Shown piece by piece: positions 55,746 through 58,861 of a DNA stretch of 64,000 nucleotides; position 1 is the first letter of the stretch; each line of letters starts with the position of its first letter. This stretch comes from Shigella phage B2, in sequence record OM858838; one strand, given 5' to 3'. Under the pieces are notes generated by a model, which was given only the letters and a program-made list of their open reading frames with translations, was not told where the DNA came from and made no database searches. Made by a program: the position numbers and the translations under genes.

Positions 55746-55968
55746 ATTAATTACCATTTTAAATGGAATATATAATTTACCTGAACGCAAAGACTACGCT
55801 CCAAAAGAGTACATATGTGATTTAATCATATGTCCTGATGTACTTTGCAGTAATTGTCCAATGGGCAACCCACATTATTTAAATCCTGACAAAGAATTAT
55901 TTGTCACTCAAATCCATAAAACATTGGAAGTCATGAACCATGAAACAAGAAACTCAACTCCTGATTGA
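55738..55968 (+). CDS. small four-Cys protein, paralog 8
   Basis: MDKLITILNGIY..., C-x4-C-x4-C-x2-C. Confidence 0.45.
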   Translation: MDKLITILNGIYNLPERKDYAPKEYICDLIICPDVLCSNCPMGNPHYLNPDKELFVTQIHKTLEVMNHETRNSTPD

Positions 55969-56863
55969 ATCTATGTTCAACCGTCACCAATCTCGTGACC
56001 TAATTAGAAATGAAATTAGAACTTCACCTGAAGTTATGGAGTTAGTTAGTGCTGCTGTAGATAAAGCACTGGAATGGGTAGAAGGTGATTACTTTGAAAG
56101 TAAGAACAAACGTCTGGCATTATTGGATACCAATATCCTAGAAGACTTCTACATTGATGTTGCTGGTTCATTGGCTCAATTTGGTAAGGCTAAGTATACC
56201 CAGATAGTAGGTATGGTATCTGGAATGATTTCTACTATGCCTCAGAAAGAGGCTATAAGGACTGCTGGAGAGCTTATCTCATTAGCAGCTATGGTAGACC
56301 TCATTGACCTGATTCCAGCCTCTATGAGCGTTACAGGCTCTATGGAACTGGTATCCCGTATACAGCTTGAACCAAAGACATTGGAACTGATTAACCAGTA
56401 TCAATATCTGCCTCCTATGCTTGTTCCCCCTGAACCAGTTAAATCAAATACTGGTAGTGGGTATCTGTCCATCAAATGGGATTCCCTGATTCTGAAGAAG
56501 AATCATCATGAGTTTGATATCTGTTTGGATAATATCAACAGATTTAACTCAGTAGCTTTCTCTCTGGATGACCGTGTAATCCGTAATATTAGGGATAACC
56601 GTAAACATCTGGATAGTGCTAAAGCTGATGAATCTGCTGATGAGTACAAAGCACGAGTTGATTCATTTCTGAAAATGGAAAAGGAATCTATGCGTGTATT
56701 TGCAATGCTCATCAATGAAGGGAACAGATTCTATCTGACTCACAAGTATGACAAACGAGGTCGTACTTACTGTCAGGGCTATCATGTCTCCTACCAAGGG
56801 AATACCTATCGTAAAGCTATTCTTGAATTAGCTGATAAAGAAATCGTACCCATTGAGGAATAA
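55940..56863 (+). CDS. RNA polymerase II small subunit candidate
   Basis: 307-aa ORF lying 770 bp upstream of the catalytic subunit gene, matching the two-gene RNAP II layout of N4-like phages; assignment is positional. Confidence 0.45.
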   Translation: MKQETQLLIESMFNRHQSRDLIRNEIRTSPEVMELVSAAVDKALEWVEGDYFESKNKRLALLDTNILEDFYIDVAGSLAQFGKAKYTQIVGMVSGMISTMPQKEAIRTAGELISLAAMVDLIDLIPASMSVTGSMELVSRIQLEPKTLELINQYQYLPPMLVPPEPVKSNTGSGYLSIKWDSLILKKNHHEFDICLDNINRFNSVAFSLDDRVIRNIRDNRKHLDSAKADESADEYKARVDSFLKMEKESMRVFAMLINEGNRFYLTHKYDKRGRTYCQGYHVSYQGNTYRKAILELADKEIVPIEE

Positions 56864-56865
56864 TC

Positions 56866-57006
56866 ATGTTTTGCATTATTACAGCAGCATATCTACGTCT
56901 TAAGAATAAGGTAGATGAAGATATAGTAATTGGTTCATGGCTTGCTGGTTTATTAGAGCTATGTCTTGAAGTACCAATGATTTTAACTTTAGCAGGTAAA
57001 CTTTAA
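56866..57006 (+). CDS. small hydrophobic ORF (46 aa)
   Basis: Tight coupling to flanking genes. Confidence 0.25.
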   Translation: MFCIITAAYLRLKNKVDEDIVIGSWLAGLLELCLEVPMILTLAGKL

Positions 57007-57242
57007 TGGCTGAATTATCCAAACCAGAACAACTCATTAAGATTACGCTATTACTGCGTGATATTCCTGATGAGTTAGAAAAACATTTCTGTAGTACTCA
57101 TCCTGCATGTGAAAAGTTTTGTGGTGCTGAGCATGACAAAACTAAATGTGCATTGTTCTATCTCTCTGAAGAAGAGATTAAGAAAACCATCTTTGGTCTA
57201 GATGCAGCAGGGAGGATGCTGGGAATCATTCCTGATGAATAA
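57006..57242 (+). CDS. small Cys-containing protein
   Basis: 78 aa with C-x5-C-x3-C-x7-C; possibly a divergent relative of the paralog family. Confidence 0.4.
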   Translation: MAELSKPEQLIKITLLLRDIPDELEKHFCSTHPACEKFCGAEHDKTKCALFYLSEEEIKKTIFGLDAAGRMLGIIPDE

Positions 57243-57417
57243 GGAATTAGTATTAATTCTTAGAGAATTGAAAAAAGCATCTGAAATACAAAACTCATGT
57301 TTTGGAACTAATTTCAGAGATTTTTCATGTACAAATGTTGATTGCCCTCAATGTATATTAAGTAACGTTAATAAATCTTTCAGATATTCAAGCCAAATTG
57401 TATTGGTGAATCTATGA
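57235..57417 (+). CDS. small four-Cys protein, paralog 9
   Basis: Start at internal ATG 57235; MNKELVLILRELKK..., C-x9-C-x4-C-x2-C. Confidence 0.45.
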   Translation: MNKELVLILRELKKASEIQNSCFGTNFRDFSCTNVDCPQCILSNVNKSFRYSSQIVLVNL

Positions 57418-57626
57418 ATGATGAATTGATTCTTATATTGGATTCATTCAGAAATTATTCAGTTAAAGATGGCTCATGTAGAGGAGATATATTCAATTTA
57501 ACAGGAACTTTTACACGTACACAGCAATGTGATGGCAAGTGTATTTCATGCCCATTAGTACAAATACGTGATAAAAAAATATATCCAGACCAAATCATTA
57601 TAACTTTCTCTCAACTAAATAAGTGA
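57414..57626 (+). CDS. small four-Cys protein, paralog 10
   Basis: MNDELILILDSFR..., C-x16-C-x3-C-x2-C, YPDQIIITFSQL. Confidence 0.5.
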   Translation: MNDELILILDSFRNYSVKDGSCRGDIFNLTGTFTRTQQCDGKCISCPLVQIRDKKIYPDQIIITFSQLNK

Positions 57627-57634
57627 GACTCAAG

Positions 57635-58861
57635 ATGCAGAAGTTTACAGCTTTCCAATATATCAAATTAGATGTAGCTAACTCCTTTGGCTTAGACAAA
57701 GAAACATTCGATAACCGTCTTAACTGGTTCAATGAAAATAAGGGTAGCTTATCTGGTCTGGTAGATGATGCAGATGAACCTGCTCAGTTCTATGCAGGTA
57801 TGTTGGCTTACCAAGATGTACTTGAAGGTAAACCAATTGGTTATATGGTAGGTATGGATGCTACTGCATCTGGATTGCAGTGTATGGCTGCACTCACAGG
57901 TTGTAAGGTTACTGCTGAAACAGTAAATCTGGTTAACCCTAATGTACGTAAAGATGCATATACCGATGGCTATAAAGTCATGGGCAATCTACTGGAAGGT
58001 AAGATTGATAAGGTAGACCGTAAGGATGTTAAAGGTGCAATCATGACACACTTCTATGGCTCTCAAGCCAATCCTAAAAGTGTGTTTGGTGAGAACACTA
58101 TAGAGCTACAGAAGTTCTATGAGATGGTTCAGATTATTGCACCGGGTGCAAACATGCTACGAGATGATTTAATTAATCTCTGGCAGCCTAAAGCACTTCA
58201 GCATATGTGGGAATTACCAGATGGCTTTACTGCTGTCGTTAAGGTAATGACCATGAAGGAAGCAAGCTTTGAAGTAAATGAACTGGATAGCTCATTCACT
58301 CATCGCTATTGGGTTAATGAAGGTCAAGACTTTGGTCTATCACTGGCTGCTAATACTATTCACTCAGTGGATGGGATGGTAGTACGTGAAATGAATCGTC
58401 GTGCTAACTACGATAAGAACAAAGTACAGCGTGTGTATGAGCTTCTGACAAGCTCTAACATCTTAAAGGTAGGAATACCTTCCAAGAACCAAGGACAGCT
58501 TGAGAGGCTTGTTAAGCTCGCTGAACAGCATCGTTTTGTATCTGCTGTACTGGTTGAGTATATAGACCATCTGAATGTTCACTTAGTACCACTCTGGATT
58601 AAGAACCAACTCATCGAAATTATTGAGAAGATGTTGGCTCATAAACCATTCCCAATCGTTGCAATCCATGACTGCTTCAAATGTCATCCTCTGTACATGA
58701 ATGAGGTACGTCAGAACTATATCGATATCTTCGCTCAGATTGCAGATAGCACAATGCTGCAAGCTATGGCATCTCAAATTGCAGGTAAACGTGTTCCAGT
58801 AGGCAAACTGTCTAATGACTTGTCTACTCTCATTCGTCAGAGCAACTATATGCTCAGCTAA
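57635..58861 (+). CDS. RNA polymerase II catalytic subunit (T7-like single-subunit RNAP palm/fingers)
   Basis: Motif A MDATASGLQ (cf. T7 DGSCSGIQ), motif B RKDVKGAIMTHFYGSQ, motif C AIHDCFKC; start set at ATG 57635 (track uses GTG 57623). Confidence 0.65.
   Translation: MQKFTAFQYIKLDVANSFGLDKETFDNRLNWFNENKGSLSGLVDDADEPAQFYAGMLAYQDVLEGKPIGYMVGMDATASGLQCMAALTGCKVTAETVNLVNPNVRKDAYTDGYKVMGNLLEGKIDKVDRKDVKGAIMTHFYGSQANPKSVFGENTIELQKFYEMVQIIAPGANMLRDDLINLWQPKALQHMWELPDGFTAVVKVMTMKEASFEVNELDSSFTHRYWVNEGQDFGLSLAANTIHSVDGMVVREMNRRANYDKNKVQRVYELLTSSNILKVGIPSKNQGQLERLVKLAEQHRFVSAVLVEYIDHLNVHLVPLWIKNQLIEIIEKMLAHKPFPIVAIHDCFKCHPLYMNEVRQNYIDIFAQIADSTMLQAMASQIAGKRVPVGKLSNDLSTLIRQSNYMLS

What the first reader, a model, noticed from the sequence alone, without database searches (positions are those of the whole stretch)
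55940..58861. RNAP II subunit genes separated by an insertion of small genes
The two RNAP II genes, which together make a T7-like polymerase (motifs A, B and C are in the second), are separated by ~770 bp. That spacer holds four small ORFs, two of them four-Cys family members. Paralog expansion appears to have invaded the polymerase operon.
Basis: seen in the sequence. Interest (0 to 1): 0.4.

Follow-up and report, generated by a model that had tools for sequence, protein, structure and literature searches.

The report
Small genes between split polymerase genes
In this Salmonella N4-like phage, four tightly packed small genes sit between the two genes for the split middle-gene RNA polymerase; this is real, but it is the usual, already documented layout for N4-like phages, not a special invasion.

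Summary
RNAP1 (55940-56863) and RNAP2 (57635-58861) are clear homologues of N4 gp15 and gp16. They are 771 bp apart, and the gap holds four tightly packed ORFs. Two of these (57235-57417 and 57414-57626) belong to a ten-copy family of four-Cys proteins.

- **Separation is normal.** In 80 N4-like contigs the RNAP1-RNAP2 gap has a median of 726 bp and a range of -4 to 4661 bp. Only 9 are as close together as in N4 (47 bp). After de-duplication, 6 of 46 clusters are that close.
- **It is already published.** Two papers state that N4-like phages other than N4 carry small-gene insertions at this site.
- **The content is old.** A 78-aa gene plus one to three four-Cys genes occupy the same gap in Ithaca-, Pollock-, Pylas- and Triduovirus and in Enterobacter phage EcP1.

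The 78-aa gene is not a family member. It is more conserved across genera than RNAP2 (87-90% aa identity, dN/dS 0.04-0.10). The four-Cys genes have conserved ends and hypervariable centres. The 46-aa ORF sits in a slot whose content differs between close relatives.

No intron, HNH domain or terminator-like site, and no promoter-like excess, was found in the gap. The functions of the small proteins remain unknown. Low interest; already known.

The parts
55940..56863 (+). RNAP1, the N4 gp15-like subunit of the middle-gene RNA polymerase II. It carries the DKRGR (T/DxxGR) motif near its C-terminus.
   Evidence: phrog_2166 E 5e-114 and phrog_414 positions 166-422. PDB 6DT7_A E 2e-40. dN/dS is 0.03-0.10 against relatives.
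56866..57006 (+). orf46, a hydrophobic 46-aa ORF in a variable slot directly after the RNAP1 stop codon. Its status as a gene is uncertain.
   Evidence: It is identical in SP-058 and UTK0001, so there is no substitution evidence. In SP-076 the slot holds an unrelated 49-aa hydrophobic ORF, and in As2 an unrelated 58-aa ORF. The slot is empty in L015, Pollock and Pylas. BLASTP finds no match between orf46 and the SP-076 ORF. There is no PHROG or Pfam hit. GAGGA lies 9 nt upstream of the ATG.
57006..57242 (+). p78, a conserved 78-aa protein with the pattern C-x5-C-x3-C-x8-C (phrog_22821, function unknown). It is not a member of the four-Cys family.
   Evidence: phrog_22821 E 2.5e-55. It is 100% identical in SP-058 and UTK0001 and 87-90% identical in Pollock, Pylas and KpCHEMY26, with dN/dS 0.04-0.10. 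Homologues lie in the same gap in TR2 (E 3e-40) and EcP1 (E 4.5e-37). Family HMM E>10. hhalign probability 1%.
57235..57417 (+). 4Cys_a, a 60-aa member of the four-Cys family (MNKELVLIL...C-x9-C-x4-C-x2-C) with a hypervariable centre.
   Evidence: Family HMM 2.6e-19 (it is itself one of the ten sequences the HMM was built from). phrog_16571 1.5e-20. It is only 60% aa identical to the closest genome, with dS 0.59 against 0.02-0.1 in the flanks. The best nucleotide match among 50,697 phage records is 78%. Orthologues are present in Pollock; Pylas-type phages have none.
57414..57626 (+). 4Cys_b, a 70-aa member of the four-Cys family. Its conserved C-terminus (YPDQII.TFSQLNK) ends 8 nt before the RNAP2 ATG.
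   Evidence: Family HMM 6.5e-20 (it is itself one of the ten sequences the HMM was built from). phrog_16571 6.8e-6. Orthologues lie directly upstream of RNAP2 in Ithaca-, Pollock- and Pylasvirus, with the N- and C-termini and the Cys residues conserved and the centre variable. Nucleotide identity to SP-058 falls to 48-53% in the centre and is 98% at the 3' end.
57635..58861 (+). RNAP2, the N4 gp16-like catalytic subunit carrying motifs A, B and C.
   Evidence: Pfam PF00940 4e-19. phrog_2051 6e-169. PDB 6DT7_B 5e-87, aligned from residue 1. Invariant catalytic residues are listed.
53406..55968 (+). Upstream early-region array holding the other eight four-Cys paralogues: 53406-53609, 53599-53811, 53808-54017, 53998-54243, 54565-54738, 54735-54965, 55542-55745 and 55738-55968. 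The array is interrupted by a 79-aa ORF and a macro-domain-like gene at 55031-55534.
   Evidence: HMM E-values run from 5e-24 to 3.5e-18, and no hit elsewhere in the window has E below 0.6.
52565..52981 (+). Homologue of N4 gp2, the ssDNA-binding cofactor of RNAPII. A strong terminator-like hairpin follows at 52991-53010.
   Evidence: tblastn with N4 gp2: E 4.5e-12, 30% identity over 128 aa.

Best explanation
The window comes from an Ithacavirus (Schitoviridae, Humphriesvirinae), a Salmonella N4-like phage. Like N4, it makes its middle-gene polymerase (RNAPII) as a heterodimer of two separately translated halves of a T7-like enzyme. Because the halves assemble after translation, the two genes do not need to be adjacent. 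Across N4-like phages the interval between them is a permissive site where lineage-specific small early genes accumulate.

In this lineage the interval holds four elements:
(i) a variable slot directly after the RNAP1 stop codon, which here holds orf46;
(ii) p78, a strongly constrained, probably zinc-binding small protein;
(iii) and (iv) two members of a four-Cys small-protein family that is expanded to about 10 copies in the early region.

The ORFs abut or overlap by 1-8 nt, apart from a 2-nt gap before orf46 and an 8-nt gap before the RNAP2 ATG. No terminator-like site and no excess of promoter-like sites was found inside the gap. They are therefore most likely co-transcribed, and partly translationally coupled, with the polymerase genes as one early transcription unit.

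The four-Cys genes behave like a scaffold with exchangeable centres. The terminal helices and the four Cys are kept, while the loops between the Cys are replaced by old, diverged alleles. This fits recombination at the conserved gene ends and selection for diversity, as expected for host-directed early proteins.

Shown: homology, gene order, conservation, mosaicism and how widespread the gap is. Inferred: co-transcription, translational coupling, zinc binding and a host-directed role.
For: Identity of the phage: 97% nucleotide identity to vB_SenP_UTK0001 and 91% to FSL SP-058.

Polymerase halves. An N4 gp2 cofactor homologue is present.

The gap is typical. N4 has 47 bp, G7C has 584 bp with an HNH gene, Pa2 has 1217 bp with 4 genes, EE36phi1 has about 2.1 kb, Vibrio 1.026.O has 1.7 kb with 7 annotated genes, and nACB1 has 255 bp. 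Across 80 IMG/VR loci the median is 726 bp and 9 are at 100 bp or less. Across 46 de-duplicated clusters the median is 775 bp. Published statements say the same. In LUZ7, RNAP1 and RNAP2 are ORF20 and ORF22.

The content is conserved: p78 plus four-Cys genes in the gap in Pollock, Pylas, KpCHEMY26, TR2 and EcP1.

Constraint: p78 has dN/dS 0.04-0.10 and 87-90% aa identity across genera. The four-Cys genes have dN/dS 0.3-1.0 and dS 0.4-0.7, where the flanks have 0.02-0.27.

Mosaic profile: 95-100% nucleotide identity in RNAP1, p78 and RNAP2, against 48-68% in the four-Cys centres.

No RNA family, terminator or promoter signal above chance in the gap.
Against: There are no expression data, so co-transcription and coupling are inferred from spacing alone. 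N4-type early and middle promoters cannot be recognised with the tools available, and the N4 P2 hairpin pattern gave nothing above chance.

The deep conservation of p78 and four-Cys genes at exactly this site, extending to EcP1 at 48% RNAP2 identity, could mean the position is functional rather than merely permissive.

Zinc binding and fold are untested. The AlphaFold models were of low confidence (pLDDT 52 and 63).

The 80-locus survey is the best-scoring subset of 253 confirmed relatives, not a phylogenetically balanced sample.
Confidence: 0.85

Rival explanations
1. One reading: a recent paralogue expansion in this phage, or its immediate ancestors, inserted copies into a previously contiguous RNAP1-RNAP2 operon of the N4 type.
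For: Two gap ORFs are true family members. Family copy number differs among close relatives: 10 in the window, 12 in SP-058, 11 in L015, 8 in Pollock and 7-8 in Pylas-type phages. Pylas-type phages have one gap copy and Ithaca- and Pollockvirus have two. Paralogue 5' ends share 29-nt stretches at 83% identity, which could mediate recombination.
Against: Positional orthologues of both gap copies exist in Pollock, and 4Cys_b also has one in Pylas and KpCHEMY26. TR2 and EcP1 also carry four-Cys genes in the gap. Paralogues are 21-37% identical to each other, while cross-genus orthologues are 41-47% identical, so the duplications predate the genera. The two gap copies are no closer to each other (33%) than to the upstream copies. 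Contiguity is not the default state in the family.
Confidence: 0.08
2. The position is functional. p78, and possibly the neighbouring four-Cys proteins, would be a lineage-specific accessory factor or regulator of RNAPII. It could be an analogue of N4 gp1 or an assembly or promoter-recruitment factor, encoded between the subunits so that it is made in step with them.
For: p78 is at least as conserved as RNAP1 and more conserved than RNAP2 across genera: 87-90% against 80-92% and 76-83% aa identity, with dN/dS 0.04-0.10. It has stayed inside the RNAP1-RNAP2 interval down to EcP1 and TR2. It directly follows the RNAP1 stop (2-3 nt later, or overlapping it) in L015, Pollock, Pylas and TR2. No N4 gp1 homologue was detected in the window. 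RNAPII cofactors are known to differ between N4-like lineages, for example gp2 versus Drc. The N-terminal half of RNAP1 is divergent from N4: only residues 151-303 align.
Against: There is no direct evidence of any interaction. The phage already has a gp2 homologue. Other lineages carry unrelated genes, or none, at this site and still have RNAPII. In EcP1 the order is shuffled, with four-Cys genes on both sides of p78. High conservation alone does not indicate a transcription role. p78 is acidic and has no detectable DNA-binding or known fold.
Confidence: 0.15
3. The gap is the remnant of a mobile-element insertion, either a homing endonuclease gene or a group I intron. This kind of element splits or invades polymerase genes elsewhere in the family.
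For: G7C has an HNH gene exactly between gp15 and gp16, and EE36phi1 has an HNH gene directly after RNAP1. JWAlpha and Vibrio 1.169.O have RNAP2 interrupted. A 94%-identical relative (L015) has an HNH_3 ORF with sub-threshold group I intron matches inside RNAP2.
Against: In the window, none of the four gap ORFs has an HNH or other nuclease domain. No Rfam family matches 55500-59300 at E of 0.1 or less. The content is a conserved lineage-specific gene set under purifying selection.
Confidence: 0.03
4. The small ORFs are chance reading frames in a non-coding regulatory spacer.
For: orf46 has no homologues beyond identical copies and no substitution evidence. All four ORFs are short. RefSeq leaves 4Cys_b unannotated in SP-058, SP-076 and Pollock.
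Against: p78 has dN/dS 0.04-0.10 across dS up to 0.87. The four-Cys ORFs stay open with invariant Cys at 41-47% identity. The family profile finds 115 representatives at the 50% cluster level, and all but one are stand-alone proteins of 56-87 aa. The ORFs are tightly packed on one strand, some with SD-like sequences.
Confidence: 0.02

Closest known systems
Bacteriophage N4 RNA polymerase II (gp15/RNAP1 + gp16/RNAP2; PDB 6DT7, 6DT8, 6DTA)
   Same: Both subunits are clear homologues (E 2e-40 and 5e-87). The split point is the same: between the T/DxxGR motif and motif A, contiguous on a T7-type profile. The gene order is the same, in the early region. A gp2 cofactor homologue is present.
   Different: N4 has 47 bp between the genes, while this phage has 771 bp with four ORFs. 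RNAP1 is 307 aa here against 269 aa in N4, and its N-terminal half does not align.
Small-gene insertions between RNAP1 and RNAP2 reported in other N4-like phages: DSS3phi2 and EE36phi1 (about 2 kb, PMC2784036), LIT1/LUZ7/Pa2-type Pseudomonas phages, and the general statement in PMC3915230
   Same: The site and the phenomenon are the same: several short ORFs of unknown function on the same strand between the two subunit genes. The gap length here equals the family median.
   Different: The inserted genes are unrelated between lineages. The p78 and four-Cys HMMs hit only Humphriesvirinae, Triduovirus and EcP1 in the gap. Of 215 gap ORFs in 80 loci, only 15 are small with at least four Cys and a CxxC pattern, and 8 of those are from this clade.
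Homing-endonuclease or intron insertions in the RNAPII genes (G7C gp15.1 HNH between gp15 and gp16; JWAlpha and Vibrio 1.169.O with split RNAP2)
   Same: Extra genes interrupt the polymerase gene pair. A close relative of this phage has an HNH-bearing, intron-like insert in RNAP2.
   Different: The window's gap has no nuclease domain and no intron signal. RNAP2 is intact here.
PHROG families phrog_16571 (four-Cys) and phrog_22821 (p78), both 'unknown function'
   Same: 4Cys_a, 4Cys_b and the upstream paralogues match phrog_16571. p78 matches phrog_22821 over its full length.
   Different: These are catalogue entries with no described function, structure or biology. The copy-number expansion and the mosaic centres are not recorded there.
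RNAPII cofactors N4 gp2 and LUZ7 Drc (PMC7145618)
   Same: They are small early proteins that work with RNAPII and differ between N4-like lineages. This is the model for the speculative reading of p78.
   Different: Neither gene lies between the subunit genes: gp2 is at the left end of N4 and Drc is LUZ7 gp14. p78 has no detected similarity to either and no evidence of ssDNA or RNAPII binding. The window has its own gp2 homologue.

Membership tests
[quoted passage not shown] | Subunit 1 is homologous to N4 gp15 (RNAP1) | tested here: met
   6DT7_A E 2e-40. phrog_2166 E 5e-114.
[quoted passage not shown] | Subunit 2 is homologous to N4 gp16 (RNAP2) and to the T7-type catalytic domain | tested here: met
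   6DT7_B E 5e-87 over residues 1-408. PF00940 E 4e-19, above the cutoff.
[quoted passage not shown] | Catalytic motifs are divided as in N4: T/DxxGR in subunit 1 and motifs A, B and C in subunit 2, with no part of the fold missing at the split | tested here: met
   DKRGR lies in RNAP1. Invariant D75/S79/G80/Q82, R129/K133/Y141/G142 and H345/D346 lie in RNAP2. phrog_414 positions 166-422 and 426-595 abut. The motif names rest on established knowledge of T7 RNA polymerase.
[quoted passage not shown] | The two polypeptides form an active heterodimer that transcribes middle genes with an ssDNA-binding cofactor | not testable with these tools
   Only the presence of a gp2 homologue could be shown.
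Four-Cys small-protein family (phrog_16571) | Significant match to the family profile | tested here: met
   4Cys_a: 2.6e-19 on the window HMM (built from the ten window copies, these two included) and 1.5e-20 on the PHROG profile. 4Cys_b: 6.5e-20 and 6.8e-6. p78 fails, with HMM E>10 and hhalign probability 1%. orf46 has no match.
Four-Cys small-protein family (phrog_16571) | N-terminal MNxELxLIL helix, four Cys in the pattern C-x(n)-C-x(3-8)-C-x2-C, and a C-terminal helix | tested here: met
   The four Cys are invariant in 24 sequences from four phages. The AF2 model shows helices at 3-19 and 57-68, but its confidence is low.
Four-Cys small-protein family (phrog_16571) | Metal (zinc) binding by the four Cys | not testable with these tools
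   Inferred only from the invariant Cys pattern. No significant PDB match.
Known 'small-gene insertion between RNAP1 and RNAP2' layout of N4-like phages | Same-strand short ORFs between RNAP1 and RNAP2, seen in several N4-like lineages and reported in the literature | tested here: met
   for the genomes. PMC2784036 and PMC3915230 for the published statements.
Homing endonuclease or group I intron insertion | An HNH, GIY-YIG or LAGLIDADG domain, or an intron RNA structure, in the inserted segment | tested here: not met
   No such Pfam or PHROG domain in the four ORFs. No Rfam match at E of 0.1 or less in 55500-59300.

The most novel reading that the evidence does not exclude
The gap is not just a dumping ground. 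Under this reading, p78 would be a lineage-specific, zinc-binding partner of the split polymerase, encoded between the two subunit genes for co-ordinated synthesis. It is more conserved than RNAP2, about level with RNAP1, and has been held inside the RNAP1-RNAP2 interval from Ithacavirus to EcP1. The flanking four-Cys proteins would be a diversifying set of small host-targeting zinc proteins whose variable centres are swapped by recombination at the conserved gene ends.
Probability: 0.15. Interest if true: 0.5.

Novelty: already known. Interest (0 to 1): 0.15.

Why it matters
As stated, the finding adds little. It has been in print since 2009 that N4-like phages other than N4 carry small genes between the RNAPII subunit genes. 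This exact layout is already annotated in GenBank relatives.

Two things are useful. First, N4 is the exception rather than the reference state for this site. Second, the gap in this clade is not random filler. It contains one small Cys-rich gene under unusually strong constraint, and two members of a fast-evolving, about ten-copy family of four-Cys early proteins with cassette-like variable centres. Small early phage proteins of this kind are a common source of host-takeover and anti-defence factors, so p78 and the four-Cys family are reasonable candidates for functional screening. Nothing found here shows what they do.

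Tried and rejected
- **Structure prediction.** The models were too poor for a fold search: p78 had pLDDT 52 and pTM 0.31, and 4Cys_b had pLDDT 63 and pTM 0.46. 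No fold search was run.
- **Profile searches of PDB.** Searches with the p78 and four-Cys alignments gave only chance-level hits, E 0.28 or higher.
- **Pfam.** The four gap ORFs gave nothing above cutoff.
- **Is p78 a distant family member?** The family HMM gave E>10. hhalign gave probability 1%, with only the N-terminal helix aligned. Rejected as untestable at this depth.
- **Is orf46 related to the hydrophobic 49-aa ORF at the same slot in SP-076?** BLASTP found no alignment. The resemblance is in composition only.
- **N4 early-promoter hairpin.** A search with the P2 stem-loop as I recalled it, allowing up to 3 mismatches, gave 16 matches against 9.5 expected, and none in the early region. 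It was uninformative.
- **Promoter and terminator scan.** The sigma-70 and terminator scan of 52500-61000 found no terminator-like site and no promoter-like excess in the gap. A short inverted-repeat scan showed no strong hairpin there.
- **Rfam.** The scan of the region gave no match.
- **N4 gp1.** tblastn found no homologue in the window.
- **Word-indexed protein search.** It returned few hits: 6 clusters for p78 and 30 for the four-Cys family. The families are therefore narrow, but that tool's sensitivity is limited.

Full report
**What the window is.** Region 55500-59300 is 97% identical to Salmonella phage vB_SenP_UTK0001. It is 91-95% identical to FSL SP-058, SP-076, As2, SP154 and UTK0002, 82% to Escherichia phage Pollock and 77% to Klebsiella phages Pylas and KpCHEMY26. 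These are N4-like phages of the Schitoviridae, subfamily Humphriesvirinae, and the window belongs to the genus Ithacavirus.

**Checking the observation.**
- *RNAP1.* The ORF at 55940-56863 (307 aa) matches phrog_2166 'N4-like RNA polymerase' (E 5e-114). It also matches chain A of the solved N4 RNAPII structure 6DT7 (E 2e-40).
- *RNAP2.* The ORF at 57635-58861 (408 aa) matches Pfam PF00940 (E 4e-19), phrog_2051 (E 6e-169) and 6DT7 chain B (E 5e-87). The alignment to N4 gp16 starts at Met1 (MQKFTA against MQTFTA). The ATG at 57635 is therefore the start, not the GTG at 57623 that a mechanical ORF call gives.
- *Split point.* On a T7-type polymerase profile (phrog_414), RNAP1 covers positions 166-422 and RNAP2 covers 426-595. 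The two genes are contiguous halves of one fold.
- *Motifs.* DKRGR (the T/DxxGR motif) is at the end of RNAP1. D75/S79/G80/Q82, R129/K133/Y141/G142 and H345/D346 of RNAP2 are invariant in nine diverse homologues. From established knowledge of T7 RNA polymerase, these are motifs A, B and C.
- *Gap.* It is 771 bp long. It holds four + strand ORFs at 56866-57006, 57006-57242, 57235-57417 and 57414-57626. The middle three junctions overlap by 1, 8 and 4 nt.

**The four-Cys family.** Ten ORFs between 53406 and 57626 share three features. They have an N-terminal MNxELxLIL helix, four Cys in the pattern C-x(n)-C-x(3-8)-C-x2-C, and a C-terminal hydrophobic helix.
- An HMM built from them finds no other ORF in the 64-kb window at E below 0.6.
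- The four Cys are invariant in 24 sequences from four phages.
- The two gap ORFs at 57235 and 57414 score 2.6e-19 and 6.5e-20 on this HMM, although they are two of the ten sequences it was built from. Both also match the independent profile phrog_16571.
- The 78-aa ORF (p78) also has four Cys, but with different spacing (C-x5-C-x3-C-x8-C). It matches a different PHROG (phrog_22821), fails the family HMM, and gives 1% probability in a profile-profile comparison.

So 'two of them are family members' is correct.

An exhaustive profile search of 1.84 billion representative proteins finds 115 family representatives. All but one are stand-alone proteins of 56-87 aa. The word-indexed search places the family on contigs of about 70 kb, that is, N4-like phage genomes. 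No function is annotated anywhere.

**Is the separation unusual?** It is not.
- N4 itself has 47 bp between gp15 and gp16, and JWAlpha has 34 bp.
- G7C has an HNH gene there (584 bp).
- Pa2, a Litunavirus, has four small genes (1217 bp).
- EE36phi1 has an HNH gene plus six small genes (about 2.1 kb).
- Vibrio phage 1.026.O has seven small genes (1.7 kb).
- Acinetobacter phage nACB1 has one (255 bp).

I then fetched 80 N4-like loci from IMG/VR using an RNAP2 alignment. I located both subunits with HMMs and measured the gap. The median is 726 bp, the range is -4 to 4661 bp, and only 9 of 80 loci are at 100 bp or less. After collapsing the loci to 46 clusters at 70% RNAP2 identity, the median is 775 bp and 6 clusters are at 100 bp or less. 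The 771 bp seen here is essentially the family median.

The literature already says this. Zhao et al. 2009 note about 2 kb of small insertions between RNAP1 and RNAP2 in the roseophages, against 47 bp in N4 (PMC2784036). Wittmann et al. [quoted passage not shown] In LUZ7, RNAP1 and RNAP2 are ORF20 and ORF22 (PMC7145618).

**Is the gap content recent?** It is not.
- *p78.* Homologues lie in the same interval in every Humphriesvirinae genome examined, in Triduovirus TR2 and in Enterobacter phage EcP1. EcP1's RNAP2 is only 48% identical to the window's.
- *4Cys_b.* It has positional orthologues directly upstream of RNAP2 in Ithaca-, Pollock- and Pylasvirus, recognisable by the C-terminus YPDQII.TFSQLNK.
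- *4Cys_a.* It has orthologues in Ithaca- and Pollockvirus. Pylas-type phages lack it.
- *TR2 and EcP1.* TR2 has p78 plus two four-Cys ORFs, one of them unannotated. EcP1 has three four-Cys-like ORFs interleaved with p78.
- *Age of the paralogues.* They are 21-37% identical to each other, and the two gap copies are 33% identical. This is lower than the 41-47% seen between cross-genus orthologues. The duplications therefore predate the genera.

Outside this clade the gap genes are unrelated. Neither HMM hits them. Only 7 of the remaining gap ORFs are small with four or more Cys and a CxxC pattern.

**How the gap genes evolve.**

| Gene | aa identity to relatives | dN/dS | dS |
|---|---|---|---|
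| p78 | 100% (SP-058, UTK0001); 87-90% (Pollock, Pylas, KpCHEMY26) | 0.04-0.10 | 0.02-0.07 (SP-058, UTK0001) |
| RNAP1 | 80-92% over the same cross-genus comparisons | 0.07-0.10 | 0.04-0.05 (SP-058, UTK0001) |
| RNAP2 | 76-83% over the same cross-genus comparisons | 0.14-0.16 | 0.11-0.27 (UTK0001, SP-058) |
| 4Cys_a | 60% to UTK0001, the nearest genome (97% nt overall) | 0.55 | 0.59 |
| 4Cys_b | 94% (UTK0001), 51% (SP-058), 74% (L015) | 0.38-1.00 | 0.05-0.50 |

- A 60-nt sliding comparison shows 95-100% identity through RNAP1, p78 and most of RNAP2. Identity drops to 48-68% only in the centres of the four-Cys genes, while their 5' and 3' ends stay at 98-100%.
- The window's 4Cys_a allele has no match above 78% nucleotide identity in 50,697 phage records.
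- High dS combined with conserved ends points to exchange of old, diverged alleles by recombination, not to recent point mutation alone. Short conserved 5' coding repeats are shared among the paralogues.
- The 3' end of 4Cys_b lies 8 nt from the RNAP2 start codon. It may also be constrained as the RNAP2 translation-initiation region; this is an inference.

**orf46.** The 143 bp between the RNAP1 stop codon and the p78 start codon is an indel among close relatives.
- It is identical in the window, SP-058 and UTK0001.
- In SP-076 it is replaced by an unrelated stretch of about 141 bp with a 49-aa hydrophobic ORF.
- In As2 it is replaced by an unrelated 58-aa ORF flanked by near-repeats of the junction (GAGGAGTAATCATG and AAGGAATAATCATG).
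- It is absent in L015, Pollock and Pylas, where p78 follows RNAP1 directly.
- BLASTP finds no similarity between orf46 and the SP-076 ORF.

orf46 has a good SD-like sequence but no evolutionary evidence for or against coding. I treat it as a possible small hydrophobic peptide gene sitting in a cassette slot.

**Signals in the gap.** No terminator-like site was found inside the gap and promoter-like sites show no excess. The scan of 52500-61000 gave fewer promoter-like sites than shuffled sequence. The only strong terminator-like hairpin (52991-53010) follows the gp2 homologue. No Rfam family matches 55500-59300. N4-type promoters could not be assessed, because a recalled N4 P2 hairpin pattern gave only chance-level hits. 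Co-transcription of RNAP1, the four ORFs and RNAP2 is therefore an inference from the tight spacing and the absence of detectable signals.

**Function of the small proteins.** Nothing informative was found.
- There are no Pfam domains.
- The PHROG families are of unknown function.
- There are no significant PDB matches.
- The AlphaFold models are of low confidence (pLDDT 52 for p78 and 63 for 4Cys_b). They show only terminal helices around a poorly defined Cys region. I ran no fold search on them.
- The window encodes an N4 gp2 homologue at 52565-52981 (E 4.5e-12), so the known RNAPII cofactor is present. N4 gp1 has no detectable homologue.

**Conclusion.** The arrangement is the ordinary, already published state of N4-like phages. 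In this clade it is an old, inherited gene set, not a recent invasion.

The most likely account is a permissive intergenic site in an early operon that encodes a post-translationally assembled heterodimer. Here that site is filled with one strongly constrained small Cys-rich gene, two members of a diversifying four-Cys early-gene family, and one cassette slot.

A functional link between p78 and RNAPII is not excluded. p78's conservation and fixed location are suggestive, but no result here supports it directly.

Noticed in passing
window 53406-55968 and 57235-57626: There is a ten-copy family of four-Cys small proteins (57-81 aa) with conserved N- and C-terminal helices and invariant Cys. The centres are hypervariable among Ithacaviruses that are otherwise 95-100% identical. 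Copy number ranges from 5 to 12 across related phages. The profile finds 115 representatives among 1.84 billion proteins. Function is unknown.
   Followed up: partly
L015 (IMGVR_UViG_3300021357_000002) 7050-7831: In a relative with 94% RNAP2 identity, RNAP2 is interrupted exactly at motif C (profile position 346) by an insert of about 780 bp. The insert carries an HNH_3 ORF (Pfam E 6e-9) flanked by two sub-threshold group I intron matches (RF00028, 30 and 29 bits). This looks like an intron with a homing endonuclease in the catalytic site. The same contig has an extra 165-aa ORF with no Pfam domain between p78 and 4Cys_a.
   Followed up: partly
L008 (Vibrio phage 1.169.O, NC_048121) 3501-6535: The gene order is permuted. 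An HNH-split RNAP2 comes first (fragments at 3513-3965 and 4924-5634). The RNAP1 homologue follows downstream (5615-6535, annotated as hypothetical).
   Followed up: no
window 58451-58582 (RNAP2 aa 273-316): This is a mosaic patch inside RNAP2, between motifs B and C. The window and UTK0001 share one allele. SP-058 carries a different allele that resembles Pollock's, with 53-75% nucleotide identity in a gene that is otherwise 95-100% identical. From memory of T7 RNA polymerase, the promoter-specificity loop lies in this part of the fold. This was not tested.
   Followed up: partly
window 55031-55534: A 167-aa gene is embedded in the four-Cys array and annotated 'phosphatase' in relatives. It gives a weak Macro-domain match (PF01661, E 0.0019, below cutoff). 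It is under strong purifying selection (dN/dS 0.05-0.11) and is conserved in Pollock, Pylas and TR2. It may be an ADP-ribose-processing early protein.
   Followed up: no
window 56864-57006; L094 1563-1703; L095 1565-1745: The slot directly after the RNAP1 stop codon holds different, unrelated short ORFs in different Ithacavirus isolates, or nothing at all. In As2 the insert is bounded by near-repeats of the SD-stop-start junction (GAGGAGTAATCATG and AAGGAATAATCATG). This suggests gene-cassette exchange at gene boundaries.
   Followed up: partly
PHROG profiles; L007 JWAlpha 3501-5520: phrog_2166 (505 positions) covers RNAP1 plus the first ~130 residues of RNAP2. phrog_20599 corresponds to an isolated RNAP2 N-terminal fragment. 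The polymerase therefore seems to be cut at different places in different N4-like phages. For example, JWAlpha RNAP2 is split near residue 136 by an inserted gene.
   Followed up: no
window ~50012: Window position 55940 corresponds to position 5929 of the UTK0001 record. That record's left end therefore falls near window position 50012, so the window is permuted relative to GenBank relatives. The early region runs rightward from there.
   Followed up: no
L001 3415-3615 (SP-058), L002 3884-4096 (Pollock), L094 ~2112-2324 (SP-076), L096 ~3160-3340 (TR2): The four-Cys gene directly upstream of RNAP2 (in TR2, the first of the two gap copies) is left unannotated in these RefSeq records. This leaves an apparent 'intergenic' stretch of about 200 bp.
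   Followed up: yes
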